In this document: piece after piece, positions 16,287 through 50,147 of the stretch
How the letters are laid out: each line of letters starts with the position of its first letter
Position numbering within the stretch: the first letter of the stretch is position 1
Assembly: GCA_002084955.1 (NCBI GenBank)
Contig: MZGJ01000004.1
Location: 3,155-67,154 of the forward strand
Length of the DNA stretch: 64,000 bases
Source: a candidate division CPR3 bacterium 4484_211
Lineage (GTDB): Bacteria; Patescibacteriota; 4484-211
Reading direction: 5' to 3'
The notes under the pieces: generated by a model
What the model was told of the DNA's origin: nothing
Database searches by the model: none
The model's input: the letters and a program-made list of their open reading frames with translations, nothing else
Position numbers and translations under genes: made by a program

Positions 16287-16321
16287 ATAGGGTGACACCC
16301 TTTTCAAGGGTGTCACCCTAT
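16287..16321. repeat. Hairpin repeat (family 3): ATAGGGTGACACCC-ttttcaa-GGGTGTCACCCTAT
   Basis: 13-14-bp perfect arms. Same arms at 48271..48305; half-site GAGGGTGACACCCC inside recG at ~15409. Confidence 0.6.
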
Positions 16322-28998: not shown

Positions 28999-29075
28999 TG
29001 GTGAGCCCGGGTGGATTTGAACCACCGACCTCTACGATGTCAACGTAGCACTCTTACCAGCTGAGCTACGGGCTC
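28999..29075 (-). tRNA. tRNA-Val (anticodon GAC), CCA encoded
   Basis: GAGCCCGUAGCUCAGCUGGUAAGAGUGCUACGUUGACAUCGUAGAGGUCGGUGGUUCAAAUCCACCCGGGCUCACCA: 7-bp acceptor, D/anticodon/T arms, GUUCAAAUC T-loop. Confidence 0.85.
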
Positions 29076-30927: not shown

Positions 30928-31392
30928 TTAGTTGCCGTTGCAAAAGAAGCTAAAATAGATAACATCCTGTCCGGTGCGGAAGTGATTTTTTAGACTTCCT
31001 TCAGGAATGAAATCCTCTTTTATGGCTAAGATCATCATCGGTTTGTTTTGGGCGTGAATTAAAGCCAGAACCTTTCTAAATCCTTGTTTTCGAGCGTAAT
31101 TCTTTGCGGCTTGCAGTAATCTTCTGCCAATGCCTTGCTTTTTGTATTCGGGGTGAACACTTAGAGAGACTGTCATCCCGATGCCGTTTTTAAGATTGGA
31201 GAACCCAATCATTCCGACGATAGTGTGGTTTTTTTCTGCTACCCAGAATTTACTATGTAAGCTAGTTTCAATTAGCGACTGTTCTGAATATAGATCGCCA
31301 AGGTCTTTTTGATTTAGGTTAATAAGTTTAACGCAGGCTTTGGCGTCGGTTTTTTGAAAGGGGCGGATTTTAAAGGTTAATTGGTCGGGCAT
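30928..31392 (-). CDS. GNAT family N-acetyltransferase
   Basis: Acetyl-CoA binding QGIGRRLLQAAKNYARKQG (Q/RxxGxG/A motif); 154 aa. Confidence 0.75.
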   Translation of the reverse strand: MPDQLTFKIRPFQKTDAKACVKLINLNQKDLGDLYSEQSLIETSLHSKFWVAEKNHTIVGMIGFSNLKNGIGMTVSLSVHPEYKKQGIGRRLLQAAKNYARKQGFRKVLALIHAQNKPMMILAIKEDFIPEGSLKNHFRTGQDVIYFSFFCNGN

Positions 31393-31556: not shown

Positions 31557-31579
31557 GCCTCATGAAGTACCGGGTACTG
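31557..31579 (+). repeat. REP copy B (GCCTCATGAAGTACCGGGTACTG); extended identity from 31542; adjacent internal duplication GGGTACTGCTC x2
   Basis: Exact 23-mer; supplies the ATG of the 31562 ORF (MKYRVLLGY...). Confidence 0.8.
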
Positions 31580-32428
31580 CTCGGGTACTGCTCCTGTTGC
31601 ATATTGGACAGCTGTTTGTTATACTTCGCGTTAATGTCAATCCCACAAGTTTCCTCAAGGAATACCAAAAACGAAATTTTGGCTGCTTATCAACAGTTAC
31701 GGGATATGGTAAGCCAGCGGAAGGAGACTCCGGCGGTGTCATTTCGCGGGAAGATTATTGCCCAGGTGGAGAAAATAGAAGCGAGCTTGGCGGCTAAGCA
31801 GGCCGAGGTAGGTGAATTAGAAGAAAGAATTGCACAGTTAAAGCAGGAGTTGCAACTGGGCGAGAGGATGAAGTTGACTCGGGAGCAGTTGGAAAAGTTG
31901 CAGGAAAAGATTGCCCAAGAAGAGCAGCGGTGGCAAAGACAGCGCCGCCAGTTGGAAGAAGAGCTGAAGGATGTGAGGTTGTGGAATGAGAAGCAATGGG
32001 AAAAAGAACTGGGGCAGAAACGGTGGGAATTGGAAATGGAGGAAAAGAAGAGAATGAGGATTCTTGAGGAAAAGGAAAAACTCTTCGGGCAGAAGGCGGC
32101 AGATTATAAGCAGTTAAAAGAGCAGGTAAAGTCTTTTCCTGAGCGGTTAGAGAAAGCGGCTAAAGATGGTATTTCGGAAGGTTTGGCGTCTGCAAGAGAA
32201 GAATTTGAGGTGGAGAAAAAGAGCATGAGGCAGCAGTTTGAATCGGAAAAGCAACTTTTAAATCAACAGATTGAAAATTTAGAAAACCGCCTGCAGGAAG
32301 AGAAGGAGGCAAAGAAGAGACTGGAACAGCAGTTGGCTTTGGCTTCTCAGCAGATTAAGCAACTGGCAGTGGCGGCACTGGAAAATAAAACATCTAAAGT
32401 TCAAGAAACAACTCCCAAGACTGCATAA
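31562..32428 (+). CDS. Hypothetical coiled-coil protein (E/K/Q/L-rich)
   Basis: 288 aa; heptad-like EELKxxLEE repeats throughout, no enzymatic motifs. Bracketed by direct REP copies. Confidence 0.4.
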   Translation: MKYRVLLGYCSCCILDSCLLYFALMSIPQVSSRNTKNEILAAYQQLRDMVSQRKETPAVSFRGKIIAQVEKIEASLAAKQAEVGELEERIAQLKQELQLGERMKLTREQLEKLQEKIAQEEQRWQRQRRQLEEELKDVRLWNEKQWEKELGQKRWELEMEEKKRMRILEEKEKLFGQKAADYKQLKEQVKSFPERLEKAAKDGISEGLASAREEFEVEKKSMRQQFESEKQLLNQQIENLENRLQEEKEAKKRLEQQLALASQQIKQLAVAALENKTSKVQETTPKTA

Positions 32429-32728: not shown

Positions 32729-33691
32729 TTAAAGTGGATGAATGTTCTGTTTTGGAGCTATCTCGACTACATAATCCCCTTCCCAGACAGTATTTGTGTC
32801 CGCGTGCATAATCACTACGCCGTTTTCTTTAGCCTTGGTAACTATTTCTTTGCCCAGAGTTGCTGATGGGTAGAGTTTGTAAAGTGGTTGCCCTTTGCTA
32901 AAAGATTCTTCTGGGCTTACCAGATACTTAACAAATCCGCTCACTGGAGCACGGTATATTTTAAGTTTGTCAATATAAAACTGTCTGTTCGCGTTGCTAC
33001 TTTTTCCTTTTTGTGTTGTCCTAATCCTGATCACTTCTAGATAATTCAGTATGTTAAGGATGCCTTCTACAGTGCGATCTATGTTTTGTTGGTCGAATTC
33101 GTCGTGTGATCCGCACTCTATAGCGATTGATTTCTGTTTCTCGATTATTCGAGCGGCTGTAAAGGGCATACCTCCACCCTTTTTAGTTGCTTCATGCATG
33201 TCAAAAATTATTGAGTAACACATGTTTGAGGCTTTAGCGATTTTGAGATATTGTTTTGAGGGAATAATGAGATATGGCCTACTCCTATTTGCGGTATGTA
33301 GATCAATGGAGAATTTGCTATCGGATGCCAGATTTGAGAGCTGTCGTGCTAGCCGCTCGGCACCTGTTCCTGAACTTGATCCGGGAAAGTTGCGATTAAA
33401 GTCTTTTCCGTCATAGAGAGAGAATTTTCCGCTGGTATAGTAGTAAATTTTCTGATTCCAGGAGTAAGGATTGCATATGGGTACAAGCGTTATTCTGCCA
33501 AGTATCTTTGTTTTTTGAAGTTCATGTATTAGTTGGTGAAAGATGAAAAAAGTTGTTTCTCCCCCGTGAATACCCCCTTGGATATATATTGATTGACCTT
33601 TGTTGTCAGGCCCGACAATATAATAAGGGAGAGAAATCTTACCTCCTGTAATAGAGTAGCCAATTTGTAGATTTTGTCTTTTCACTTTCAT
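32729..33691 (-). CDS. Succinylglutamate desuccinylase/aspartoacylase (AstE/AspA) family zinc deacylase-like protein
   Basis: GGIHGGETT (cf. GxHGNE zinc site of the family); 320 aa. Confidence 0.5.
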   Translation of the reverse strand: MKVKRQNLQIGYSITGGKISLPYYIVGPDNKGQSIYIQGGIHGGETTFFIFHQLIHELQKTKILGRITLVPICNPYSWNQKIYYYTSGKFSLYDGKDFNRNFPGSSSGTGAERLARQLSNLASDSKFSIDLHTANRSRPYLIIPSKQYLKIAKASNMCYSIIFDMHEATKKGGGMPFTAARIIEKQKSIAIECGSHDEFDQQNIDRTVEGILNILNYLEVIRIRTTQKGKSSNANRQFYIDKLKIYRAPVSGFVKYLVSPEESFSKGQPLYKLYPSATLGKEIVTKAKENGVVIMHADTNTVWEGDYVVEIAPKQNIHPL

Positions 33692-33782
33692 ATCTAAGAG
33701 TATTTTAGCATGAGTTTAACCTGGAGAGGTTCAAGAGAACTTAAAGTTGGCTTGTCTCTTGAACCTCTCACAGGACCCGTTT

Positions 33783-35306
33783 TTATCCAAACATCACTTT
33801 TCGGGCAGCCGGAATGATTTGTTGCCCGAAAATTGTCAGCTCTTCTTGGCTGGAGTGAAAGATGGCCGGTAATCCCCCCCAGCTGTAGACTTGGGCCGGC
33901 GCCAGCAGACGCGGATCCCCGGCCCGGGTTCTCTTGGTGAAGACCTGGCCGGGCCGGGCGGCCCAGCAGAGGATCTGGCCGGTTTTTTCGTTAGCCGGCA
34001 CTAACCGACCGGCCTCCCATTTCCACCAGCCGTTCATGTTGCCCACAACGGGTAATGGCAGCTCGGCCTCTGGCAGAGGGTGGATATCAAACTGCCATCC
34101 TCCAGCTTCGGCCACGCTTTGGCGATTGTACTCCTCTGGCCGAAGCCAGGAAAAGTCTTCTTCGCCTGAGGCGGCGAGAAGCCAGAGACCGAATGTGGAA
34201 GGCCGTCCTTTCATCAGGGCTCGACGGTCGTGTGAAAACGAAGTTCCCTGGTACCGCGCGTTGATTTCGTGCGGGACTACTCGCTCTCCTTCGAGGTCGA
34301 TGATAAAGTCAATCCCGAAGATCCCGATGTATCCGAATTCTTGGTGTAGGTGTTGGCCTACCCGCACCATCACATTTAGGTACTGAACCTGGATCCTCTC
34401 CGGCCATGGATTTGTCCAGTCATCACCGACGGCGCCCTGGGGTTTGCCGCCGGTGATGTGGCTAATCTGACCCGCGGAAGGTTTGTGAGACAAGGGGTCG
34501 ACGAGCACGACCCCACCGGGCAGGACCACTGCCTGCCCATTAGTTTCGTAGCCCTCGACAAACTCGACGACCCGGTACCACATGCCCGGGCCGGCCTCCC
34601 GGAGCATGTGGACTGCGTCGGACCAAGTGTGGTACACTCCGACGATCCGGGTCCCTGACCCTCCGGCAGAATCGTCGGTTTGTACCACGCACTTCTCTCT
34701 GAAGAGAGATCGAACTTCCTCCCATTCTGGGAGTTGGGGCGTGGTCCCCTCTATAAAATGTGGAGGGTCTACACCTGCTCCCTGAAGAATGGGGGCAAAG
34801 TTCTTTTTGGGCTCGATCAGTTTTGTTACCCTGAAGGGGACATAAACCTGAACGAGCCCCCTCTTTTTGGAGAGGCGGTCCGCTTCAGTCCGGAAGCCAT
34901 CCCAAGCTCCGCGTGTAAACACGGAGCTGTACAGGATGTAGGGGCCTACCAAAACTCCATTAGGGTTGGAGAGCATCCAATCCCACAATAAGGGCAGGTG
35001 GGTCCCCTCCGGGTCGAAGACGAGGTCAGGTGTGGGTTGGCCGGGCTTGTCCAAAGTAACGGATAACCGAGCCCGGCCGCGCCCGATGGTGGTCAGCTCC
35101 AAATTGGGCTCGGGAAGAAGCCCGAAGTTGACCAGGTTGTACAAGATTGGCCGCGTGTGGATCGCGGCTAGGGAGCGACTCCAAAGGGCTTGCTGTAACC
35201 GGGTTGCAAATTGGTCTAGCATCTCTGGCCTCCTTTTTGAAAGATTTAAAGAGCAAAATCGAAGTGAATTAAAAACGGGAAGAAAAGAAATAACAAGAGT
35301 AGGCAA
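33783..35306 (-). CDS. ATP-grasp fold ligase (~60% GC, compositionally foreign)
   Basis: VVQTDDSAGGSGTRIV (ATP-grasp K/GSxGxG-like loop) and C-terminal GIFGIDFIIDLEGERVVPHEINARYQG (Mg/ATP E-x-N). Hand-counted GC of 34381-34440 is 60%, against 32% (33001-33060) and 40% (35521-35580) in the neighbours. Confidence 0.6.
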   Translation of the reverse strand: MPTLVISFLPVFNSLRFCSLNLSKRRPEMLDQFATRLQQALWSRSLAAIHTRPILYNLVNFGLLPEPNLELTTIGRGRARLSVTLDKPGQPTPDLVFDPEGTHLPLLWDWMLSNPNGVLVGPYILYSSVFTRGAWDGFRTEADRLSKKRGLVQVYVPFRVTKLIEPKKNFAPILQGAGVDPPHFIEGTTPQLPEWEEVRSLFREKCVVQTDDSAGGSGTRIVGVYHTWSDAVHMLREAGPGMWYRVVEFVEGYETNGQAVVLPGGVVLVDPLSHKPSAGQISHITGGKPQGAVGDDWTNPWPERIQVQYLNVMVRVGQHLHQEFGYIGIFGIDFIIDLEGERVVPHEINARYQGTSFSHDRRALMKGRPSTFGLWLLAASGEEDFSWLRPEEYNRQSVAEAGGWQFDIHPLPEAELPLPVVGNMNGWWKWEAGRLVPANEKTGQILCWAARPGQVFTKRTRAGDPRLLAPAQVYSWGGLPAIFHSSQEELTIFGQQIIPAARKVMFG

Positions 35307-35362
35307 GGGTAAGATGAGCGCTAGGCGGTTATTTCCTTGACTTCCCGTTTTTAAGAGAATTC

Positions 35363-36253
35363 TTATGGACTTTTATAGACTTGCTTGACCACCCAGGAGA
35401 ATCCTCTTGGCCCGATTTGCGGTACAGAGATAATTCTGGGAAATTTTGACAATAAGTTTTTACCATTTTGATCTTGGACATTGTATCCCTTGTCAACTGC
35501 ATGAAGCATTTCTAAATCATTCTCACCATCACCGACGCCAATAGTTTTTATGCGCGTCTTGTGTGTTTTTACAAAGATTTGTGTAAATTTTTTAACAGCT
35601 TTTCCTTTATCGCAACCCTTTAATACATGATAGAATAATCCTCCTTTTAATACGGTATGGCCCCTAGCTTGCAATTCAGATATGACTTCATTTTTGATTT
35701 CCCCTTTTATATCCACATTCTTTTTGAATTGAAAGGCAACATCAAAATACTTTTGGGGTGAACATCCCTCTCGTATTTGTTCTACTGTCCAATGAGGAAA
35801 GTACGGTTGCAATGAGATTATTTCCTCGCTAGATTGGGGCATATCAGGGGAAATTATAAAATAGTTGGGCAATCCATATTTTTGTGAGATTTTATTTTCT
35901 ATATTGTCTAGGTCTCGTAATATTTTATTTCTTTGGACTCCTAAGCAAATGAGTAACCCTTCTGGAATCTCGATGTGTCGATGGGGTACCTGCTTAAATT
36001 TATTTTGGTATTTTTGGGGTATAACGATGCCGCCACCGTTTTCGCAGATAAAAGGCACGTTAAGTTTCATTCTTTGTAAAAGTGTGTAAATGGCACCGGC
36101 CGGTTTGCTAGAGACTGGGACTATTAGGTCGCTATGCCTTTTTATTGTCGTTACAGCCTTCTCACTTTTATGAAAGTTCATTTTTTGATCAACAAGCGTC
36201 CCATCGATATCTGTGAAAAAAAGTTTTTTGGTGGTATTATTTTGGAAATCCAT
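35363..36253 (-). CDS. HAD-IIB family sugar-phosphate phosphatase (Cof / mannosyl-3-phosphoglycerate phosphatase-like)
   Basis: Motif I FFTDIDGTLVD; motif IV GVGDGENDLEM. Start taken as the internal Met (MDFQ...), since the track ORF overlaps the upstream gene by 125 nt. Confidence 0.6.
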   Translation of the reverse strand: MDFQNNTTKKLFFTDIDGTLVDQKMNFHKSEKAVTTIKRHSDLIVPVSSKPAGAIYTLLQRMKLNVPFICENGGGIVIPQKYQNKFKQVPHRHIEIPEGLLICLGVQRNKILRDLDNIENKISQKYGLPNYFIISPDMPQSSEEIISLQPYFPHWTVEQIREGCSPQKYFDVAFQFKKNVDIKGEIKNEVISELQARGHTVLKGGLFYHVLKGCDKGKAVKKFTQIFVKTHKTRIKTIGVGDGENDLEMLHAVDKGYNVQDQNGKNLLSKFPRIISVPQIGPRGFSWVVKQVYKSP

Positions 36254-37352
36254 TTTTTTCAGGTAAGTTGAAATATGCGGAAAGACCAAGTCTGCGAATA
36301 CGTTGAATAACTGGTTCATAAAATGGGGCCGCTCTCTTAGCGGCGTTAGAAATGTATTCATCAGTAGCTGGGTGTCTGAGGCATTCCCATGGCTTGAAGT
36401 GAAACTTTTCTTTTCTTGGGTCTAATCTTTGATGCTGTGTAAATATTGGATAACGTCGCTTAATCAAGTCTTTTACCTTCTGGTTCCGTTTGGTGTCTTT
36501 GGTTTTGTATAGTGTTTGTTGAATTTTCCAAAAAATGTCACTCTTTTCAACTTTATAGAAGTCGTTAAGCATTGCAATCGCACAGTGGCGATCGGTTTTG
36601 ATATAAGCATTCTTATTTTCGTCAGTAATGCTAATAGGGCTTTCCTCGCTGGCAGTAGCCAGCCAATAACCGCGACCGTTTTGGTAGGCTAGTGAAAAGC
36701 CGCATCTAGCTAATTTAAGACTGAAAGTAGTTGCGTCACCCCATTGGGGCACGCCGGGATTTCTTCCGACGTAGTCCTCAATAGTTTTTAATGTTGCTAC
36801 TGCCATTCCGTTTACTGATGAGGACAAGGTAATGTCACAATATTGGGGAAATCTTGTGGCTTCTAGTTCTACTCGCGGCTTGAAGGGCTTTCCGTTGTTA
36901 AGGGATGGAAGCCCGAGTAATCCTAATTTATATTTTATTAAGTTTTCTATCATATATTTTGTAAAGCCATATTGTATTATGGCCACGTCCGCATCTCTGT
37001 GTATCAAGATATCTCCTGTTGCCAAGTCTTTCAGTTGGGTTCTAGCCTCTGGTAGGTTAAATTTATCTGTATAGTTTTCTACAAATTTGACATTCTGCCA
37101 TTTGTCAGAGACGCCTTCTAAGAAGGAGAGAGAGTTGGCAATCCTTTCTCCAATAACCTTGGCTTTCTTGGCAAATCCCCTATATTGGCTACAGAAGAAA
37201 ATACACTCAATAAGATCGGACGGAAAGTCTTCCTGGAGGAATTCCGCTAGCCGCTTCCACCACCGATGGTGGTCAAATGTGGTGGGTATTAGCCAGGAAA
37301 CTAGCGGTCTGGGTTTTTCTGTCTTGTAAGATTTATTTGCTTCAATTGTCAT
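36237..37352 (-). CDS. Putative GT-A fold glycosyltransferase
   Basis: PLVSWLIPTTFDHHRW (cf. the GT2 N-terminal xSVVIPTYN strand) and a DxD-like ILIHRDADVAII; 371 aa. Immediately upstream of the HAD phosphatase, with overlapping stop/start. Confidence 0.35.
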   Translation of the reverse strand: MTIEANKSYKTEKPRPLVSWLIPTTFDHHRWWKRLAEFLQEDFPSDLIECIFFCSQYRGFAKKAKVIGERIANSLSFLEGVSDKWQNVKFVENYTDKFNLPEARTQLKDLATGDILIHRDADVAIIQYGFTKYMIENLIKYKLGLLGLPSLNNGKPFKPRVELEATRFPQYCDITLSSSVNGMAVATLKTIEDYVGRNPGVPQWGDATTFSLKLARCGFSLAYQNGRGYWLATASEESPISITDENKNAYIKTDRHCAIAMLNDFYKVEKSDIFWKIQQTLYKTKDTKRNQKVKDLIKRRYPIFTQHQRLDPRKEKFHFKPWECLRHPATDEYISNAAKRAAPFYEPVIQRIRRLGLSAYFNLPEKNGFPK

Positions 37353-38765: not shown

Positions 38766-40010
38766 TCACCTAATGCTTAGACTCGCTTCTACTCCTCCCG
38801 GCAGTACCTTTTTCCACTCATTGCTTCCTCCAATTTGGTAGGTTAAATTGCCCTTTAGCAATACTTTACCTGTGCCTTTGGCAGTTATATCTAATCCGGA
38901 TCCGTTAATAATAACAATTATATTCGAGCCGGTGACTGAAATGGTGCCAATTCCTGTATATTTTACCTCGTTATTCCCTATCTCTTCTTTGTGCCCTTGG
39001 CCGTTGGTGTCAACTTGGGCATCGCCGTTTTGGTCAATAATGGTTAGCGATCCTCCGCCGGCCGGGTCAACTGTTCCTGTTACCGAGCCGTTGCCGAGGG
39101 CGGCCATTTTACCGCTGCCTTTTGTGTGGATTACTCCGGTTCCGGCAAAGACCTTTATTTGTTTGTGCCGGTATTTAGTTAACTTTCTTGCTATTGCGGT
39201 CAAATCTCGATGAGCTTCCCGTAGCAATTGGTTGACTTGTTTTATCTGTTGATGAACTTCGGAAAAAGATAAGTTGTTGCCAGAGTCAGCTAGGCCATTG
39301 CATTTTTCTTGGACGGCATTTAGCTCTTCTCTTGCCTGAGAAATTTTGGTTCTGAAATTGGCAATCTCTTTTAGTAACTCGTCAATATCTTGGTCTTCTG
39401 CCTGTAGGCTTTTAATTTTTTCTTCTAATCGGTTGGCGGTGTTTTCTAGTCTGGTGAGAATATTTTCCACCTTGGCCTGGAGTATTTGGCAGGACCATTT
39501 TCTGGCCCGGAGCCGATTTTTTAACCAGTAATCCTTTAAAGTACGGGCATTTTCTTTAGCTGTCCCCAGGTCGGGGACGGAAGTAAAAGAGTGTTTTTGT
39601 TTCTGCAAATAGTTGATGTCGGTCTGAATTTCGGCTATTAAAGCTTGCTTTTCTTCGCTAGAGAGGGCTGAAGAATTTTCTATCCTTTTTTGGGCAGTTT
39701 CCAGGTAGGAAATCATGGTATCTATGGCGCTAGGAAAGTAAGTCTGGATCTTTTTCAAGAATAGATTGGAATTGGCGGCATTTTGGGCTTGTAAATATCT
39801 TTGTCGGGCAGTTACGAAATCGTCCTTTATTTGTTGATAGCTGCTCAGAACTTGGAGGTACTGTTTTTTTTGAGCTTGGTACTGTCCTGTTAAGTGTTGG
39901 TTGAGTTCAAAGGGTGATAATGCCTGTGGCTCTTGTGGAGAAAGCCAAACTAGAAACGGAGTCAGTAGGAATACAGATGTAAGCGCAACTTTAAAAATCT
40001 TTTTTTTCAT
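38766..40010 (-). CDS. Hypothetical secreted protein: signal peptide, long coiled coil, Gly-rich beta C-terminal domain
   Basis: Start taken at MKKKIFKVALTSVFLLTPFLVWL (signal-like). C-terminus GTGVIHTKGSGK...GSVTGTVDPAGGGSLTIIDQNGD...ISVTGSNIIVIINGSGLDITAKGTGKVLLKGNL. Confidence 0.4.
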   Translation of the reverse strand: MKKKIFKVALTSVFLLTPFLVWLSPQEPQALSPFELNQHLTGQYQAQKKQYLQVLSSYQQIKDDFVTARQRYLQAQNAANSNLFLKKIQTYFPSAIDTMISYLETAQKRIENSSALSSEEKQALIAEIQTDINYLQKQKHSFTSVPDLGTAKENARTLKDYWLKNRLRARKWSCQILQAKVENILTRLENTANRLEEKIKSLQAEDQDIDELLKEIANFRTKISQAREELNAVQEKCNGLADSGNNLSFSEVHQQIKQVNQLLREAHRDLTAIARKLTKYRHKQIKVFAGTGVIHTKGSGKMAALGNGSVTGTVDPAGGGSLTIIDQNGDAQVDTNGQGHKEEIGNNEVKYTGIGTISVTGSNIIVIINGSGLDITAKGTGKVLLKGNLTYQIGGSNEWKKVLPGGVEASLSIR

Positions 40011-40062
40011 CGTTATGCAAAGTCTGTAAAAGCACCACTCTTCAGGTTGAGAGGTAAAACAC

Positions 40063-40602
40063 TCATCTTCTGTCTTGACCAAAATAGGTTGTCTTTCTTA
40101 CGCGGCGTTTTGCTCTTTTTAGTTGTTTTAGTAGTTGTTTTAGTTGTTTTGGATTTCTCGGCAAAGCCGGCTCTTGATTTTTTGAATTCAATTCTCTTTC
40201 CCTTTGCAATATTGCGGGTGAAGTTGCTGCCTTTTCAAATTCTCCCGGGGTTAGTTCTGCTGCGGCTAGCGCATCTTGGACAGATCTCGCTTCTTCCAAA
40301 AGATCACCCCTGCCCTGCTGTTTGGCTGGGCTGCTGTCTCCTGAGATTTCTTCGAAGCCTTCTTGGACTTCTTCCGGCAATTTTCTTCTCCCTGGTTTTT
40401 CCCTCCCCTTGGGGATTCCAGAAGGGGTACCTCTTTTCCTAGTTCCCCTTGTTTTAGCACCGCCATAGAAATCTGTCTGCCTTTTAGGTTCGGTTTTTCC
40501 GGGAGGAGGGTTCCTAAACCTGTTTGCTTGCTCATCGCGTCGATCGAACCACTCCTCTACTCCTGGATCTTCTGAAAGTGGACGAATTTTTCCTACAGTC
40601 AT
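40063..40602 (-). CDS. Hypothetical highly charged/disordered protein
   Basis: 179 aa, R/K/E/P-rich with no motif; overlaps the downstream gene start. Coding status uncertain. Confidence 0.25.
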   Translation of the reverse strand: MTVGKIRPLSEDPGVEEWFDRRDEQANRFRNPPPGKTEPKRQTDFYGGAKTRGTRKRGTPSGIPKGREKPGRRKLPEEVQEGFEEISGDSSPAKQQGRGDLLEEARSVQDALAAAELTPGEFEKAATSPAILQRERELNSKNQEPALPRNPKQLKQLLKQLKRAKRRVRKTTYFGQDRR

Positions 40603-41076: not shown

Positions 41077-41291
41077 TATCCTTCACCCCCTTCTTAATGA
41101 TCCCGATATCGCATCGGGAGAACTAGAGCCTGCCTGCTGCCATGACGGCGACACAACTTCGCTAAGCTCTAAAGGCTGAGACGGCTCAGTGGGCATACTA
41201 AAAGCGATCTAAGATAACTTTAATTTAATCCTATTCTAGCTTCTTATTTTTGTCAATGGCAATTGGAGGACGTGTTAAGTGCTGGAGCGGC

Positions 41292-41367
41292 GGAGGGGTC
41301 TCGAACCCCCGACCTTTTGCTTGGCAAGCAAATGTTCTGCCAACTGAACTACCGCCGCAAGCTACTA
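41292..41367 (-). tRNA. tRNA-Gly (anticodon GCC), CCA encoded
   Basis: GCGGCGGUAGUUCAGUUGGCAGAACAUUUGCUUGCCAAGCAAAAGGUCGGGGGUUCGAGACCCCUCCGCCGCUCCA. Confidence 0.85.
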
Positions 41368-41395
41368 ATTTATTATACCAGACTTGGTGGGTTCG

Positions 41396-41472
41396 GTAGG
41401 GCTTGAACCTACGACCTTCTGGGTGTAAACCAGACGCTCTAGCCAGCTGAGCTACGAACCCTATAACATTGT
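41396..41472 (-). tRNA. tRNA-Val (anticodon UAC), CCA encoded
   Basis: GGGUUCGUAGCUCAGCUGGCUAGAGCGUCUGGUUUACACCCAGAAGGUCGUAGGUUCAAGCCCUACCGAACCCACCA. Confidence 0.85.
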
Positions 41473-41530
41473 TGCTGATTGGCAAGAATTGTACCAAAAA
41501 ATTGGCTTGTGGTAAAATAAATCGGTAAGT

Positions 41531-41602
41531 GCTCCGTTAGCTCAGTGGTAGAGCAGTGGTCTCTTAAACCATTGGTCGTAGGTTCGAATCCTACACGGAG
41601 CA
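41531..41602 (+). tRNA. tRNA-Lys (anticodon CUU), 3' CCA not encoded
   Basis: GCUCCGUUAGCUCAGUGGUAGAGCAGUGGUCUCUUAAACCAUUGGUCGUAGGUUCGAAUCCUACACGGAGCA followed by CUUCCA. Confidence 0.8.
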
Positions 41603-41610
41603 CTTCCAAA

Positions 41611-41654: not shown

Positions 41655-42422
41655 ATGGCGCGACAGTTGGGTCTTTACACGGATAATTTTTATCATATTT
41701 TTAACAGGGGAGCGTTAAAACGGGAGATTTTTTTGGATGATGGGGATTATTTTAGGTGGGTTAAGTTGATGTACTGGTGTTTACGCTACAATTATTCCCT
41801 TAGTAAATTTCTAAGTCGAGTTGATTTCATGCGCAGGACTGGCGAGGATTCTGGTCAGGTGGAGAAGGAAATCGCCAAATTCTATTCATTACCTCAGAGA
41901 CCTGTTGAGATGATTGCTTGGGTTTTAATGCCCAATCACTTTCACCTTGTGCTAAAGCAGCTTGTGGAGGCAGGCATTTCTAGTTTTATGCATCGCCTTA
42001 CCAGTTCGTATTCTCATTATTTTAATCGCAAATATGAAGGGACAGGGACTCTTTTCCAGGGTCGGTTTCGGGCCGTTCTTGTTGATACGGAGGAACAGTT
42101 CTTGCACCTTTGTCGATACGTTCATATTAATCCGTTATCGGCCGGGCTAGCAAGCAGGCAGACTTTGCCAGACTACTCTTGGTCTTCTTTCCGGTATTAT
42201 ATGATGGGAAAAGATGACTTGGTAACTACGAGAGAATATCTTGAGAGTTATTTTCCTTCGATACGTTTGTTAGGGGAATTTACCTTGGCGGGTTCTGTTA
42301 ATCAAGAGGCCTATTTAATTGAAGGATTAACAATTGATGACGATTTTGGATGGTATGAAGAGAAACGCGCTTGTGAGAAAATACGGCGCGACAATTTGAT
42401 AGAGGAAGTGTTTAAGGCCTAG
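41655..42422 (+). CDS. REP-associated tyrosine transposase (RAYT; IS200/IS605 TnpA-like HuH Y1 transposase)
   Basis: YHIFNRGALKREIFLDD (N-terminal motif), HuH MPNHFHLVL, catalytic-Tyr region SYSHYFNRKYEGTGTLFQGRF, YVHINP. 255 aa, longer than IS200 TnpA, as RAYTs are. Confidence 0.7.
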   Translation: MARQLGLYTDNFYHIFNRGALKREIFLDDGDYFRWVKLMYWCLRYNYSLSKFLSRVDFMRRTGEDSGQVEKEIAKFYSLPQRPVEMIAWVLMPNHFHLVLKQLVEAGISSFMHRLTSSYSHYFNRKYEGTGTLFQGRFRAVLVDTEEQFLHLCRYVHINPLSAGLASRQTLPDYSWSSFRYYMMGKDDLVTTREYLESYFPSIRLLGEFTLAGSVNQEAYLIEGLTIDDDFGWYEEKRACEKIRRDNLIEEVFKA

Positions 42423-48270: not shown

Positions 48271-48305
48271 ATAGGGTGACACCCTCAAAGAGGGTGTCAC
48301 CCTAT
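48271..48305. repeat. Hairpin repeat (family 3): ATAGGGTGACACCC-tcaaaga-GGGTGTCACCCTAT
   Basis: Same arms as 16287..16321 with a different loop. On the minus strand it is followed by UUUUUU. In the uvrB/cca divergent region. Confidence 0.6.
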
Positions 48306-48354
48306 CTGGCTACAGACTAAAGTCTAGTTGCGGAAACGAAGCACAGTTTGGGAT

Positions 48355-48378
48355 AGATGATAGACTAGTCTATCATCT
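48355..48378. promoter_or_regulatory. 24-bp perfect palindrome AGATGATAGACTAGTCTATCATCT (candidate operator 1)
   Basis: Perfect dyad; twin at 48429..48452. Lies between the divergent uvrB and cca genes. Confidence 0.35.
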
Positions 48379-48428
48379 ATTTTGATGAGGTCTGGTGGGA
48401 TTTGCCTTAACAGCAGGTTCTGGGTTAG

Positions 48429-48452
48429 GTATGATAGACTAGTCTATCATAC
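48429..48452. promoter_or_regulatory. 24-bp perfect palindrome GTATGATAGACTAGTCTATCATAC (candidate operator 2)
   Basis: Shares the 20-bp core ATGATAGACTAGTCTATCAT with site 1; centre-to-centre spacing 74 bp. Confidence 0.35.
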
Positions 48453-48497: not shown

Positions 48498-50147
48498 GTG
48501 ATGGGTTTAGAGTTTTTAAGAACAAAACAGGCGGGCATTTACTCGCTAGGCAATTGGCAGCCGCATAGTGTGACAGAAAGAGCCGCACTTGCTCTTGCCA
48601 AGGAGATGAATCAGTATGCTTGGGATAAAGGCTGGGTTAAAGCTAATTGCACCGCGGTGTATTTTGTGGGTGGATATCCGCGTGACTTAATGTATCGGCA
48701 GCTAAAAGGGCGGGATTTTGCGGCTAAAGATATCGATCTAACTACGCCGCTAAGGTGGGAGCAGGCAGCGGAATTCTTAGAAAGTCAGAAGATCACCGAC
48801 CTAACAGTTATAGAGGGGATAGAAAGCGAGAAGAAGAATTTGGTTCATCGCGTATTATACCCGTTTGGCCCTGATGGCAAACGGCTTGAATTTGAAATAA
48901 CCTCCTTTCGCGGTGAAAAAAATTACCGCGGCCATCATCCTCAAGAAGTTTGGCCGACTTTAGACATGCGTGAGGATGCCTCGCGGCGTGATTTTACAGT
49001 TAATGCCCTCTATTTTGATCCAGTTAGAAAGAAAATTATTGACTTTTTTAACGGGATAGAGGCTATAAAGGAGAATCTTTTGGATACGGTTGGTAATCCG
49101 AGACATAGATTTGGTGAAGATCCGGTGAGGATGCTGCGTTTGGTAAGGTTTAGGGCGCGGTATCAGATGAAGGTTGCTTGGCGGGCTGAGGGAGAGGTAA
49201 AAAACTGTCTTTCTGGTTTGGAAGCCGTTTCCGTAGAGCGGATTCGTGATGAAATGGAAAAGATCTTTTTAGAACCCCGTCTGGCTGATTCCATTGACTA
49301 TTTGGTGAAGCTGGGTTTAATGGACTGGGTAATTAGACCAAGCATTTTAGACGGGATGTCTTTTGGCGATCTGGATAAAGTGCAGCATCCGCCCGGGGCG
49401 CCTTATCATAAGGAGGGGAGTGTTTACCGCCACACTTTGGAAGTTTTAAAAGTTTTGGAATCAGAGCGGCTTCTAGGGTACTTTAAGAGGCTTTTTAGTA
49501 TCTTAAATAGGGCAAGCGGGGGGCAGAGTTCTGCAAGGGGCAGTTCCCAAACGAATATAGCTCAAAGTATGTACCCGGAATTAGTTTGGGCGGCGATTAT
49601 GCATGACACCGGTAAAGCTAAAACCCAGAGAGTGGAAGCCGACGGTCGAGTTACTTTTAAAAAGCACGAATATGTTTCCGCTCGGCAGGCGGCAAGTTTG
49701 GCCAAATATCTCAAGATGAGCCGTAGGGAAGCGCAGGGTATAAGCTGGATGGTAGAGAACCATCTGAGAATTAGACTTTTTCCTCAAATGAAATTAAGTA
49801 AAAAGACGGCACTGTTTGATAACGAATATTTTCCTCACCTGGTGATGCTTTTATTTGCTGATCGTTTGGGGACTTTACCGGCCGAAGGCGGATATGAGAT
49901 GATTGATGATTTTTTGGATTCACTTGAGGGTTATACTGAATTTAGGCAGAGGCTGGAGAGAGAAAGCCGGTACCGGCTGCCTATAGATGGCCATGATGTT
50001 ATCGCCGCCGGTGTCCCCCAAGGACCCCGTGTTGGTCAGGTTCTTAAAGTTTTGAAAGAAAAGTTTGATGATTATTTAGATGAAAGAGGCAGGCCGCCAG
50101 AGCAGTCGACGGTTCAAAAATGGCTGGAAGAGGAAACAGCACCTTAG
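48498..50147 (+). CDS. cca: CCA-adding tRNA nucleotidyltransferase (PolyA_pol head + HD domain)
   Basis: YFVGGYPRDLMYRQ...DIDLTT nucleotidyltransferase motif; HD region IMHDTGK...H...D; 549 aa. Confidence 0.75.
   Translation: MMGLEFLRTKQAGIYSLGNWQPHSVTERAALALAKEMNQYAWDKGWVKANCTAVYFVGGYPRDLMYRQLKGRDFAAKDIDLTTPLRWEQAAEFLESQKITDLTVIEGIESEKKNLVHRVLYPFGPDGKRLEFEITSFRGEKNYRGHHPQEVWPTLDMREDASRRDFTVNALYFDPVRKKIIDFFNGIEAIKENLLDTVGNPRHRFGEDPVRMLRLVRFRARYQMKVAWRAEGEVKNCLSGLEAVSVERIRDEMEKIFLEPRLADSIDYLVKLGLMDWVIRPSILDGMSFGDLDKVQHPPGAPYHKEGSVYRHTLEVLKVLESERLLGYFKRLFSILNRASGGQSSARGSSQTNIAQSMYPELVWAAIMHDTGKAKTQRVEADGRVTFKKHEYVSARQAASLAKYLKMSRREAQGISWMVENHLRIRLFPQMKLSKKTALFDNEYFPHLVMLLFADRLGTLPAEGGYEMIDDFLDSLEGYTEFRQRLERESRYRLPIDGHDVIAAGVPQGPRVGQVLKVLKEKFDDYLDERGRPPEQSTVQKWLEEETAP

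What the first reader, a model, noticed from the sequence alone, without database searches (positions are those of the whole stretch)
33783..35306. Single-gene high-GC island: ~60% GC ATP-grasp ligase inside a 32-40% GC neighbourhood
Hand counts give 36 of 60 G+C at 34381-34440 inside this gene, against 19 of 60 in the adjacent AstE-like gene and 24 of 60 in the HAD gene. The protein is Trp/Arg/Gly/Pro-rich, consistent with a high-GC donor. The shift is abrupt at both gene borders. This is the signature of a recent horizontal acquisition, possibly from a high-GC host-associated lineage such as Actinobacteria. The gene is intact and tightly spaced with its neighbours, a 91-nt gap upstream and a 56-nt gap downstream.
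Basis: seen in the sequence. Interest (0 to 1): 0.7.

Follow-up and report, generated by a model that had tools for sequence, protein, structure and literature searches.

The report
Conserved GC-rich, hairpin-dense ligase gene
One ATP-grasp ligase gene in a four-gene operon of a tiny CPR bacterium really is much more GC-rich than its surroundings, but the same gene is equally odd in a distant relative and is packed with hairpin-forming sequence, so the oddity looks like a maintained property of the gene and not the scar of a recent gene transfer.

Summary
The GC island is real. The coding sequence (CDS) 33783-35222(-) has 58% GC and GC3 0.67. The window mean is 44% and the flanking genes have 37-41%. 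The shift coincides with the CDS borders. Three independent assemblies give the same junctions, so it is not a chimera.

The "recent single-gene import from a high-GC donor" reading is poorly supported.
- The gene is an integral member of a conserved operon: GT-A glycosyltransferase, HAD-IIB phosphatase, ATP-grasp ligase, AstE-like hydrolase.
- A second, more AT-rich contig (L004; 63% protein identity) carries the same operon with the same single-gene island (54% vs 27-35% GC). Fourfold synonymous sites between the two copies are saturated.
- The nearest relatives of the protein are the AT-rich orthologs of this operon. No donor appeared in 15 billion proteins, GTDB genomes, plasmids, phages or viral contigs.
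- About half of the GC excess comes from amino-acid composition.

A new observation: both GC-rich orthologs, but not the AT-rich ortholog or control genes, fold 18-29% more stably than codon- or dinucleotide-shuffled versions (z -5 to -11). In both, the 5' leader is complementary to the stop-codon region.

Best reading (about 0.45): a resident gene whose GC-richness is maintained by selection for dense nucleic-acid structure. An ancient foreign origin remains possible.

The parts
33783..35222 (-). ATP-grasp-fold ligase CDS (479 aa; NCBI B5M47_00880). This is the GC-rich (58.2%), hairpin-dense gene.
   Evidence: 100% match to P0001. GC and GC3. ATP-grasp fold. Excess folding energy. Inverted-repeat density is 29 per kb against a mean of 4.9 per kb in other genes.
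35229..35235 (-). Shine-Dalgarno sequence AAGGAGG, 6 nt upstream of the ATG at 35222.
   Evidence: Read from the sequence. L004 has AAGGAGG at the equivalent place.
35269..35354 (-). Stem-loop in the HAD-ATPg spacer. The arms are 22 nt and 86% complementary, with a core of 14 perfect pairs (UUAAAAACGGGAAG / CUUCCCGUUUUUAA).
33776..33785 (-). UAAAAACGGG overlapping the stop codon. It is complementary to the 5'-leader element at 35270-35279, so the cistron can be closed by long-range pairing. This pairing competes with the local leader hairpin.
   Evidence: Only 0.55% of shuffled spacers give a complement of this length (P = 0.0055). L004 has an analogous 14/16 complement between 2848-2863 and 4369-4384 (P < 0.001).
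33724..33769 (-). Perfect 15-bp stem with a 16-nt loop in the ATPg-AstE spacer. No T-run follows it.
   Evidence: unique in the window. L004 has a 12-13-bp GC-rich stem followed by a T-rich tract at the same place.
32729..33691 (-). AstE/AspA-family zinc amidohydrolase-like gene (320 aa), the last gene of the operon.
   Evidence: PF24827, E = 3.4e-27. It is adjacent to the ATP-grasp gene in every locus.
35363..36253 (-). HAD-IIB phosphatase resembling mannosyl-3-phosphoglycerate phosphatase (296 aa).
   Evidence: TIGR01484 scores 60.9 bits, above its 41.8 cutoff. The MPGP models hit at E = 1e-35 to 1e-30 but below their cutoffs.
36237..37352 (-). Gene 'X' (371 aa), with no Pfam family. It has a GT-A glycosyltransferase fold with an invariant D120-x-D122. 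It overlaps the HAD gene by 17 nt.
   Evidence: AlphaFold2 model with pLDDT 88. Foldseek hits to ppGalNAc-T, TarS, TarP and RmlT at E about 1e-11 to 1e-9. Invariant columns.
30928..31392 (-). GNAT acetyltransferase; a possible fifth, loosely linked member.
   Evidence: Pfam hit. It is 28% identical (E = 4e-10) to the GNAT that directly follows the operon in L008.

Best explanation
The ATP-grasp gene is a long-standing, vertically co-inherited member of a four-gene small-molecule pathway operon of CPR-type bacteria: GT-A glycosyltransferase, HAD-IIB phosphatase, ATP-grasp ligase, AstE-type amidohydrolase.

In one branch of this operon family (this window and L004), the ligase cistron alone has become a GC-rich, densely self-complementary sequence. 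That state has been kept in both lineages against AT-biased backgrounds. The GC island is therefore mainly the product of two things:
(i) an intrinsically Gly/Arg/Pro/Trp-rich, Lys/Asn/Ile-poor protein, which accounts for about half of the excess;
(ii) a gene-specific force on synonymous and some replacement sites that favours stable base-pairing throughout the cistron, plus a leader-to-stop-codon closing stem.

Inferred consequence, not shown: the ligase segment of the polycistronic mRNA is a structurally insulated, nuclease-resistant and/or slowly translated module. This would set the level or the temperature response of the ligase independently of its neighbours.

Shown: the composition, the operon conservation, the synonymous saturation, the excess predicted folding and the bracketing complementarity. 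Inferred: that selection on structure causes the GC-richness, and what the structure does.
For: - Operon conservation and gene order.
- L004 shows the same CDS-limited island: GC 0.536 and GC3 0.58 against 0.27-0.35 and 0.22-0.30 in its neighbours.
- All four genes have diverged 37-55% in protein sequence. Fourfold sites are saturated in all of them.
- Observed minus expected GC3 under the host's own codon usage is +0.17 in the window and +0.29 in L004. It is -0.05 in the AT-rich ortholog L005.
- The tree ((window, L004), (P0003, P0004)) has 100% bootstrap.
- No donor was found.
- Excess folding, summed MFE against synonymous shuffles: z = -8.7 and -10.9, i.e. 19% and 28% more stable. With 40-codon block shuffles: z = -4.9 and -7.4. 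With local dinucleotide shuffles: z = -8.9 and -8.1.
- Controls: 23 other window genes have mean z -0.74 and minimum -2.5. Four GC-rich genes (58-69% GC) have z +0.9 to -3.0. L005 has z +1 to +1.9.
- Strand folding on homologous 300-nt segments gives z = -5.66, -5.53 and -0.23.
- Perfect inverted repeats of at least 8 nt: 18 vs 4.6 expected in the window and 26 vs 4.0 in L004.
- Leader/stop-codon complementarity occurs in both lineages with unrelated sequences.
- Hairpins decay quickly under drift. Their excess in two lineages with saturated synonymous sites implies active maintenance.
Against: - Only two GC-rich orthologs exist, both from metagenome assemblies.
- All structure is predicted in silico at 37 C.
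- The excess is strand-symmetric. Watson-Crick-only z is -4.4 to -6.5 on both strands. So sense RNA, antisense RNA and single-stranded DNA cannot be told apart.
- Positional conservation of pairs is marginal: 35 shared pairs against 14-18 +/- 8 in synonymous-shuffle nulls. The RNAalifold consensus is only -49 kcal, against -154 and -137 for the individual sequences.
- GC is also raised outside the perfect repeat arms: 0.57 and 0.51 against 0.68 and 0.70 inside them.
- GC1 and amino-acid usage are shifted GC-ward relative to L005. This is also what long residence in a GC-rich genome would produce. By the codon-position relations I recall from Lawrence & Ochman 1997 (memory, not checked here), GC1/2/3 look like a gene equilibrated at about 53-58% GC.
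- A test of whether C-vs-G and A-vs-T preferences track each host was in the expected direction but not significant.
- No reason is known why this gene alone should need such structure.
Confidence: 0.45

Rival explanations
1. Ancient xenologous displacement. Before the window/L004 split, the operon's own ligase gene was replaced by an ortholog from a moderately GC-rich lineage carrying the same operon. The GC-richness is inherited from that donor. It persists for unknown reasons, and the hairpin excess is a property brought along or evolved later.
For: - GC1, GC2 and GC3 and amino-acid usage are all shifted GC-ward relative to the L005 ortholog, as expected after long residence in a GC-rich genome.
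- The gene order differs between the two clades: X-HAD-ATPg-AstE against X-ATPg-AstE-HAD. In the GC-rich clade the ligase has long spacers, its own strong SD and flanking hairpins. This is compatible with an old insertion or rearrangement.
- The ligase's outgroup distance is inflated relative to X, HAD and AstE.
Against: - It does not explain how GC3 of 0.58-0.67 survives synonymous saturation in hosts whose other genes sit at 0.22-0.46. A maintaining force is still needed.
- No such donor lineage is visible in 15 billion proteins or in GTDB.
- The pair is the sister group of the AT-rich operon orthologs, not of another branch of the family.
Confidence: 0.22
2. One reading: recent horizontal acquisition of the single gene from a high-GC donor. 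Given L004, this would have to have happened independently in two CPR lineages, from related donors.
For: - The gene is a strong compositional outlier with sharp borders.
- The codon-position GC pattern shows no obvious amelioration gradient (the relation is from memory).
- A 10-nt direct repeat, TAAAAACGGG, lies after the HAD stop and at the ATPg stop (D13). It could be read as a junction duplication.
- tRNA genes and an IS200-like Y1 transposase lie about 6 kb away.
Against: - It requires two independent, exact, ORF-sized replacements in the same operon slot.
- The donors would have to be 63% identical to each other yet absent from every collection searched. The 90% protein cluster contains only the CPR3 contigs.
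- The nearest relatives are AT-rich CPR-type orthologs.
- Four exact direct repeats of 10-11 nt occur in this 2.3-kb stretch, and my own rough estimate of the chance expectation is about 2.5. The repeat flanking the gene is also part of an inverted-repeat system.
- Half of the GC excess is protein composition.
- Donor composition does not explain folding beyond composition-matched shuffles.
Confidence: 0.1
3. A neutral, self-reinforcing mutational process. Complementarity between Gly (GGN) and Pro (CCN) codons seeds quasi-palindromes. Template-switch repair perfects them and GC-biased repair raises GC. The result is a runaway hairpin-rich, GC-rich gene with no function for the structure.
For: - The excess is strand-symmetric and pure Watson-Crick.
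- It is spread over the whole gene and poorly conserved in register.
- The protein is Gly/Pro/Trp-rich.
Against: - The AT-rich ortholog L005 has almost the same Gly and Arg content but no excess.
- There is no precedent known to me for a gene-confined process of this size.
- It does not predict the leader/stop-codon complementarity outside the CDS in both lineages.
Confidence: 0.1
4. Assembly chimera or contaminant fragment inserted into a CPR3 contig.
For: The source is a metagenome-assembled genome and the island has two sharp breakpoints.
Against: - Three separate assemblies give identical junctions: an ENA scaffold, a SPAdes node and a Logan assembly of run SRR6301444.
- A different organism (L004) shows the same arrangement.
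- The gene has a native-looking SD and lies in the frame of the operon. Its orthologs sit next to the same neighbours.
Confidence: 0.02

Closest known systems
Horizontally acquired compositional islands and the amelioration model (Lawrence & Ochman 1997; cited from memory)
   Same: A gene whose GC and GC3 are far from the host mean, with sharp borders. Any composition-based HGT detector would flag it.
   Different: The same island is present in an anciently diverged ortholog in the same operon slot, with saturated synonymous sites and no amelioration. No donor exists and there are no mobility genes at the borders. Half of the signal is amino-acid composition.
Selection for extreme mRNA secondary structure in coding sequences (Gebert, Jehn & Rosenkranz 2019, PMC6544989; Katz & Burge 2003 from memory)
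   Same: The native arrangement of synonymous codons gives much more stable folding than shuffled arrangements that keep the protein and the codon usage.
   Different: The effect here (19-28% more stable, gene-level z of -5 to -11) is far outside the 27 control genes tested. It is coupled to a rise in GC of about 14 points over the window's gene mean (about 20 over L004's flanking genes), and up to about 27 points over individual neighbours. It is confined to one cistron of an operon and recurs in an ortholog.
[quoted passage not shown]
   Same: Pervasive stem-loops run through the coding sequence. Folding-energy differences are of the same size (HCV 7-9%, SARS-CoV-2 15%, maximum about 24%). 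The structuredness is conserved between relatives while the positions and identities of the pairs are poorly conserved.
   Different: This is a bacterial chromosomal gene, not a viral RNA genome. The shuffling methods and fragment sizes differ, so the percentages are only roughly comparable. The strand and the molecule (RNA or DNA) are unresolved here.
ATP-grasp carboxylate-amine ligases (L-amino-acid ligases, D-Ala-D-Ala ligase, PurD, BesA, biotin carboxylase domain)
   Same: The predicted fold matches these enzymes. The Mg/ATP motif E-x-N is invariant. The weak PDB sequence hit is to an 'ATP-grasp peptide ligase', 8ynd.
   Different: No curated family reaches threshold. The family is rare, with 478 representatives at E <= 1e-3 among 1.8 billion. 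The substrate is unknown.
Two-step glycoside compatible-solute pathways (MPGS/MPGP, GpgS/GpgP, OtsA/OtsB logic; established biochemistry, from memory)
   Same: A nucleotide-sugar glycosyltransferase is paired with a HAD-IIB phosphatase most similar to mannosyl-3-phosphoglycerate phosphatase. X homologs elsewhere pair with His_Phos_1 or HAD phosphatases.
   Different: X belongs to no known GT family by sequence. MPGP equivalog cutoffs are not reached. The added ATP-grasp ligase and AstE-type hydrolase pair has no counterpart in those pathways. Some X homologs are fused to TIR domains.

Membership tests
Recently acquired horizontal-transfer island | Composition and codon usage atypical for the host | tested here: met
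   GC z = 5.4 and GC3 z = 4.1 against 41 genes. Observed minus expected GC3 under native usage is +0.17 (other genes sd 0.049).
Recently acquired horizontal-transfer island | Gene absent from, or in a different context in, related genomes (patchy distribution) | tested here: not met
   Orthologs lie in the same operon next to the same neighbours in L004 and L005-L008.
Recently acquired horizontal-transfer island | Closest homologs in a distant donor clade with matching composition | tested here: not met
   The only close relatives are the operon orthologs. The tree is ((win, L004), (P0003, P0004)) at 100% bootstrap. There was nothing in GTDB representative genomes, viral contigs, plasmids or phages.
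Recently acquired horizontal-transfer island | Recency: little divergence from other copies, composition not yet equilibrated | tested here: not met
   The only other GC-rich copy is 63% identical, with fourfold sites at chance identity (31.6% vs 26.4%).
Recently acquired horizontal-transfer island | Mobility signatures at the borders (integrase, tRNA, flanking repeats) | tested here: inconclusive
   There is a 10-nt direct repeat at the borders, but four such repeats occur in the 2.3-kb stretch against my rough chance estimate of about 2.5. The tRNAs and the Y1 transposase are about 6 kb away, not at the borders.
ATP-grasp superfamily | ATP-grasp fold | tested here: met
   The Foldseek top 50 are all ATP-grasp enzymes at E = 5e-10 to 6e-8. 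The model is of low confidence (pLDDT 57, pTM 0.62).
ATP-grasp superfamily | Match to a curated family model above threshold | tested here: not met
   PF14398 scores 17.5 bits (cutoff 26.8). NF005096 scores 23.5 bits (cutoff 684). Homologs are likewise sub-threshold.
ATP-grasp superfamily | Conserved metal/ATP-binding E-x-N motif in the C-terminal half | tested here: met
   H318-E319-I320-N321-A322-R323 is invariant in alignment A1 and aligns to the same motif of 8ynd.
Coding sequence under selection for high secondary structure (GORS-like) | Native folding energy significantly below shuffles that preserve the protein and codon usage | tested here: met
   z = -8.7 and -10.9 with global shuffles, and -4.9 and -7.4 with 40-codon blocks.
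Coding sequence under selection for high secondary structure (GORS-like) | Also below dinucleotide-preserving shuffles | tested here: met
   z = -8.9 and -8.1 with local 150-nt shuffles. The tool's own shuffles give z = -5.66 and -5.53 with 0 of 200 shuffles folding as well.
Coding sequence under selection for high secondary structure (GORS-like) | Structure spread along the sequence, with pair positions poorly conserved between relatives | tested here: met
   Per-window z is mostly between -1.5 and -4.7 across the gene. About 7% of pairs are shared. The shared count is only marginally above the synonymous null.
Coding sequence under selection for high secondary structure (GORS-like) | Structure demonstrated physically and shown to affect fitness or expression | not testable with these tools
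   This needs DMS/SHAPE probing and recoding experiments.
MPGS/MPGP-type glycosyl-phosphoglycerate pathway | MPGP-type HAD-IIB phosphatase | tested here: inconclusive
   The HAD-IIB subfamily model is passed (60.9 > 41.8). The MPGP subfamily and equivalog models are hit at E = 4e-35 to 1e-28 but below their cutoffs.
MPGS/MPGP-type glycosyl-phosphoglycerate pathway | Synthase belonging to a known MPGS/GpgS glycosyltransferase family | tested here: not met
   X has no Pfam or NCBIfam hit. Only the generic GT-A fold and the DxD motif are shown.

The most novel reading that the evidence does not exclude
A cellular protein-coding cistron whose base composition is set by selection for pervasive nucleic-acid folding, not by ancestry or genome-wide mutation bias. 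It would be a GORS-like, end-closed 'structured mRNA module' inside an operon, conserved as a property (not as a fixed architecture) across anciently diverged CPR lineages. It mimics a horizontal-transfer island. It could act as an expression or stability device, possibly temperature-dependent, for the ligase step of a glycoside-modifying pathway in organisms with very few regulators.
Probability: 0.35. Interest if true: 0.75.

Novelty: new variant of a known kind. Interest (0 to 1): 0.6.

Why it matters
- HGT detection. Composition-based methods would call this gene foreign with high confidence. If its GC-richness is instead maintained by selection on structure, it is a concrete example of a false-positive class. 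It would also show that one cistron can hold a base composition well away from its genome's (14-20 points of GC over the local gene mean) across deep time.
- A cellular analogue of GORS. Virus-style pervasive structure in a bacterial gene would give a tractable case for asking what such structure does: mRNA half-life, nuclease or Rho evasion, translation rate, or thermosensing.
- CPR gene regulation. CPR bacteria have minimal regulatory repertoires, so cistron-level RNA architecture may be one way they tune operon stoichiometry.
- An unstudied pathway. The operon itself is uncharacterised: a novel GT-A transferase, an MPGP-like phosphatase, a rare ATP-grasp ligase and an AstE-type hydrolase. 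It may make a modified glycoside solute.

Tried and rejected
- Assembly chimera: rejected. Three assemblies are concordant and a second organism shows the same layout.
- Amino-acid composition as the sole cause: rejected. Expected GC is 0.517 against 0.583 observed, and 0.426 against 0.537 in L004.
- Conserved overlapping or antisense ORF: rejected. The antisense ORFs are fragmentary, lie in different frames and regions in the window and L004, and are expected in GC-rich DNA.
- Known RNA family inside the gene: none. The Rfam scan of the window found only 4 tRNAs.
- Donor search by protein, profile, DNA pattern and tblastn in all available collections: nothing.
- Recurrence of the downstream hairpin as a REP-like repeat: no other copy in the window.
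- IS200/PATE-like cassette: the flanking hairpins are unrelated to each other, so this was not pursued.
- Strand assignment through G-U pairs: inconclusive.
- Host-tracking of C/G and A/T synonymous preferences: right direction, not significant.
- Positional covariation between the two orthologs: a few compensatory pairs, but the overall overlap is only marginally above a synonymous-shuffle null.
- Curated family for the ligase and for X: none above threshold.
- AlphaFold model of the ligase: poor (pLDDT 57) because only 3 sequences were available.
- Literature searches for this operon or for GC islands in CPR: nothing specific found.
Full report
**Source and observation**

The window is a contig of 'candidate division CPR3 bacterium 4484_211'. 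The ORF product is 100% identical to its hypothetical protein B5M47_00880. The surrounding genes are ordinary CPR housekeeping genes: trigger factor, ThrRS, IF3, L35/L20, PheRS, RecG, UvrB and PBP1.

The GC island is real.
- The true CDS is 33783-35222(-). Its ATG is preceded by AAGGAGG and it encodes 479 aa. The TTG at 35306 is not the start.
- The CDS has GC 0.582 and GC3 0.665.
- The 41 other genes average GC 0.443 (sd 0.026) and GC3 0.459 (sd 0.050), giving z = 5.4 and 4.1.
- No other 1-kb bin exceeds 0.52.
- At 60-nt resolution the rise begins at the ATG and the fall begins about 45 nt before the stop codon. Both spacers are AT-rich.

The flanking genes have 37-41% GC.

Three independent assemblies reproduce the junctions at 99.9-100% identity: a 65.9-kb ENA scaffold, a SPAdes node and a Logan assembly. 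A chimera is therefore excluded for practical purposes.

**What the gene and its neighbours are**

The product gives only sub-threshold hits to curated ATP-grasp models. Several other lines support an ATP-grasp carboxylate-amine ligase of an uncurated, rare family (478 representatives among 1.8 billion):
- its invariant HEINAR motif;
- a weak PDB sequence hit to an ATP-grasp peptide ligase;
- a Foldseek list made up entirely of ATP-grasp enzymes, from a low-confidence model (pLDDT 57).

The gene sits in a same-strand cluster:
- X (36237-37352). It has no Pfam family. A confident AlphaFold model (pLDDT 88) shows a GT-A glycosyltransferase fold with an invariant DxD motif.
- A HAD-IIB phosphatase most like mannosyl-3-phosphoglycerate phosphatase (35363-36253).
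- The ligase.
- An AstE/AspA-type zinc hydrolase (32729-33691).

A glycosyltransferase plus a dedicated phosphatase is the usual logic of two-step glycoside solute synthesis (established biochemistry, from memory). An ATP-grasp ligase next to an AstE-type amidohydrolase suggests addition and removal of an amide-linked group. This functional sketch is inference only.

**The key comparative result**

The four genes recur together elsewhere.
- L004 (Logan SRR26701722) has X-HAD-ligase-AstE.
- L005-L008 (groundwater metagenomes) have X-ligase-AstE-HAD, followed in L008 by a GNAT.
- A GNAT also lies 1.3 kb beyond the AstE-like gene in the window.

In L004 the ligase is again the only GC-rich gene: GC 0.536 and GC3 0.58, against 0.27-0.35 and 0.22-0.30 for its neighbours. 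Again the shift is confined to the CDS. In L005 the ligase has host-like GC3 (0.27).

Window and L004 proteins are 52% (X), 45% (HAD), 63% (ligase) and 58% (AstE) identical. At fourfold sites of conserved residues the two ligase genes agree at 31.6%, against 26.4% expected from composition (n = 152). They are saturated, as the neighbours are.

A distance tree places (window, L004) as sister to the AT-rich operon orthologs (P0003, P0004), with 100% bootstrap against more distant family members.

No closer or GC-rich relative was found anywhere:
- the 5.8-billion-cluster protein search, run twice;
- the exhaustive profile search of 1.84 billion representatives;
- GTDB species genomes;
- JGI metagenome contigs;
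- viral contigs, plasmids and phages.

**Consequence for the HGT reading**

A recent, private acquisition is not what the data show. There are two alternatives. Either the GC-rich state arose once before an ancient split and has been held in two AT-biased genomes. Or two related, unseen donors each replaced exactly this ORF in the same operon slot. The second is unparsimonious.

Held-over donor composition alone cannot explain the first. At synonymous saturation, GC3 should have relaxed to the host value, as the neighbours' GC3 has (0.35-0.40 in the window, 0.22-0.30 in L004).

**Decomposing the excess**

With the window's own synonymous codon frequencies, this protein sequence would have GC 0.517 and GC3 0.493. 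About half of the 14-point excess is therefore amino-acid composition: rich in Gly, Pro, Arg and Trp, poor in Lys, Asn and Ile. The AT-rich ortholog shares much of this composition.

The remainder is synonymous choice. Observed minus expected GC3 is +0.17, against an sd of 0.049 for other genes. In L004 it is +0.29, and in L005 it is -0.05.

The three neighbours in the window are slightly AT-shifted relative to native usage, by -0.06 to -0.09.

Both GC-rich ligase genes are far more self-complementary than their composition allows. The measure is the summed local minimum free energy (MFE), compared with shuffled versions of the same sequence.

| Shuffle type | Window z | L004 z |
|---|---|---|
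| Synonymous codons, whole gene (19% and 28% more stable) | -8.7 | -10.9 |
| Synonymous codons, 40-codon blocks | -4.9 | -7.4 |
| Dinucleotide-preserving, within 150-nt windows (18% and 29% more stable) | -8.9 | -8.1 |

The whole-gene synonymous shuffle was repeated once with 24 shuffles, giving z = -6.3 and -9.5.

Controls:
- 23 other window genes: z mean -0.74, sd 0.90, minimum -2.5.
- Four genes of 58-69% GC from L015: z +0.9 to -3.0.
- The AT-rich ortholog L005: z +1.0 to +1.9.

The standard tool gave z = -5.66, -5.53 and -0.23 on homologous 300-nt segments of the window, L004 and L005.

Perfect inverted repeats of at least 8 nt number 18 against 4.6 expected in the window, and 26 against 4.0 in L004. 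In L005 the count is not significant.

Further features of the excess:
- It is spread over the whole gene.
- It is Watson-Crick and strand-symmetric, so RNA and DNA cannot be distinguished.
- It is mostly not in register between the two orthologs. They share 35 pairs, against 14-18 +/- 8 in synonymous-shuffle nulls. The RNAalifold consensus is -49 kcal, against -154 and -137 for the individual sequences.
- A few helices are shared, some with compensatory changes. One example is the stem GUGGUACA/UGUACCAC, which encloses the DSAGGSxTR motif.

This combination of conserved structuredness and poorly conserved pairings, with energy differences of this size, is what is described as genome-scale ordered RNA structure in RNA viruses (PMC7642675). 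It is an extreme case of the selection for high CDS structure reported across life (PMC6544989).

**The cistron is bracketed**

In the window the leader element CUUCCCGUUUUUAA (35269-35282) has two possible partners. It can pair locally with UUAAAAACGGGAAG (35341-35354). It can also pair with UAAAAACGGG, which overlaps the stop codon at 33776-33785 (P = 0.0055 by spacer shuffling).

In L004 an unrelated leader sequence (2848-2863) is 14/16 complementary to the 16 nt right after the stop codon (P < 0.001).

Both loci also have a strong stem-loop between the ligase and the AstE-like gene. These regions were chosen after seeing the repeats, so the P values are indicative only.

**Interpretation**

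Hairpin excess decays quickly under drift. Its presence in two lineages with saturated synonymous sites means it is actively maintained. A force favouring stable pairing would by itself favour G and C. It would act only on the cistron, and it would persist. It therefore explains the island's extent, its sharpness and its conservation without needing a donor.

I favour a resident operon gene whose GC-richness is maintained by selection for dense structure (0.45).

An ancient xenologous origin of the branch (0.22) remains possible. It is suggested by the GC-ward shift at first codon positions and in amino-acid usage, and by the rearranged gene order. It still needs a maintaining force.

The other readings are less likely: independent recent transfers (0.10), a neutral quasi-palindrome or biased-repair runaway (0.10), and an assembly artefact (0.02).

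The function of the structure is conjecture. Candidates are mRNA stabilisation, insulation from neighbouring cistrons, translation throttling and temperature response.

**Limits**

- There are only two GC-rich orthologs.
- All structures are predictions at 37 C.
- The strand and the molecule are unresolved.
- The ligase model is weak.
- The substrates of the pathway are unknown.

Noticed in passing
window 36237-37352, and loci L010-L017: Gene X defines an uncurated GT-A glycosyltransferase family with 20 homologs. Outside this operon it sits next to APH-like kinases, His_Phos_1 or HAD phosphatases, a ROK kinase and a HIT protein. In three homologs (P0165, P0167, P0168; P0168 is named by NCBI as from a Desulfocapsaceae MAG) it is fused to TIR domains. 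This hints at a nucleotide- or signal-related role and not plain solute synthesis.
   Followed up: partly
window 32729-33691, 35363-36253, 36237-37352: The three operon neighbours are AT-shifted relative to the window's own codon usage (GC3 observed minus expected -0.06 to -0.09, z -2.5 to -3.1). HAD is the lowest-GC gene in the window. Other named CPR3 genomes carry '35' in their names, which I read as about 35% GC. The whole operon may therefore be compositionally older or foreign relative to this 44% GC genome.
   Followed up: partly
window 16287-16321 and 48271-48305: The same 16-nt palindrome arm, ATAGGGTGACACCCT(T/C), with a 3-nt loop, occurs twice about 32 kb apart. Further palindromes (ATAGATGATAGACT and related) lie at 48353-48452, upstream of gene 48498-50147. 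They may be operators or REP-like elements.
   Followed up: no
window 41283-41603 and 41655-42422: A tRNA cluster (Gly-GCC, Val-TAC, Lys-CTT) lies directly next to an IS200-like Y1 transposase gene. Another tRNA-Val (GAC) is at 28999-29075. The roughly 12-kb segment between them holds the operon and several coiled-coil or unknown genes.
   Followed up: no
window 3326-7846: A 1506-aa protein combines a DUF5060/apiosidase-like glycosidase region, a right-handed beta-helix and a C-terminal T4SS-pilin-like segment. This is an unusual surface-protein architecture for a CPR bacterium.
   Followed up: no
L009 4037-8428: A distant paralog of the ligase (31% identity over the core) lies in a low-GC contig, in a cluster of three ATP-grasp genes behind a multi-pass membrane protein. 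It shows no GC elevation.
   Followed up: no
window 31562-32428 (+) and 38766-40082 (-): Two long coiled-coil proteins of unknown function flank the operon region. The first is inserted on the opposite strand between the AstE-like gene and the GNAT, and it has the most deviant synonymous usage in the window.
   Followed up: no
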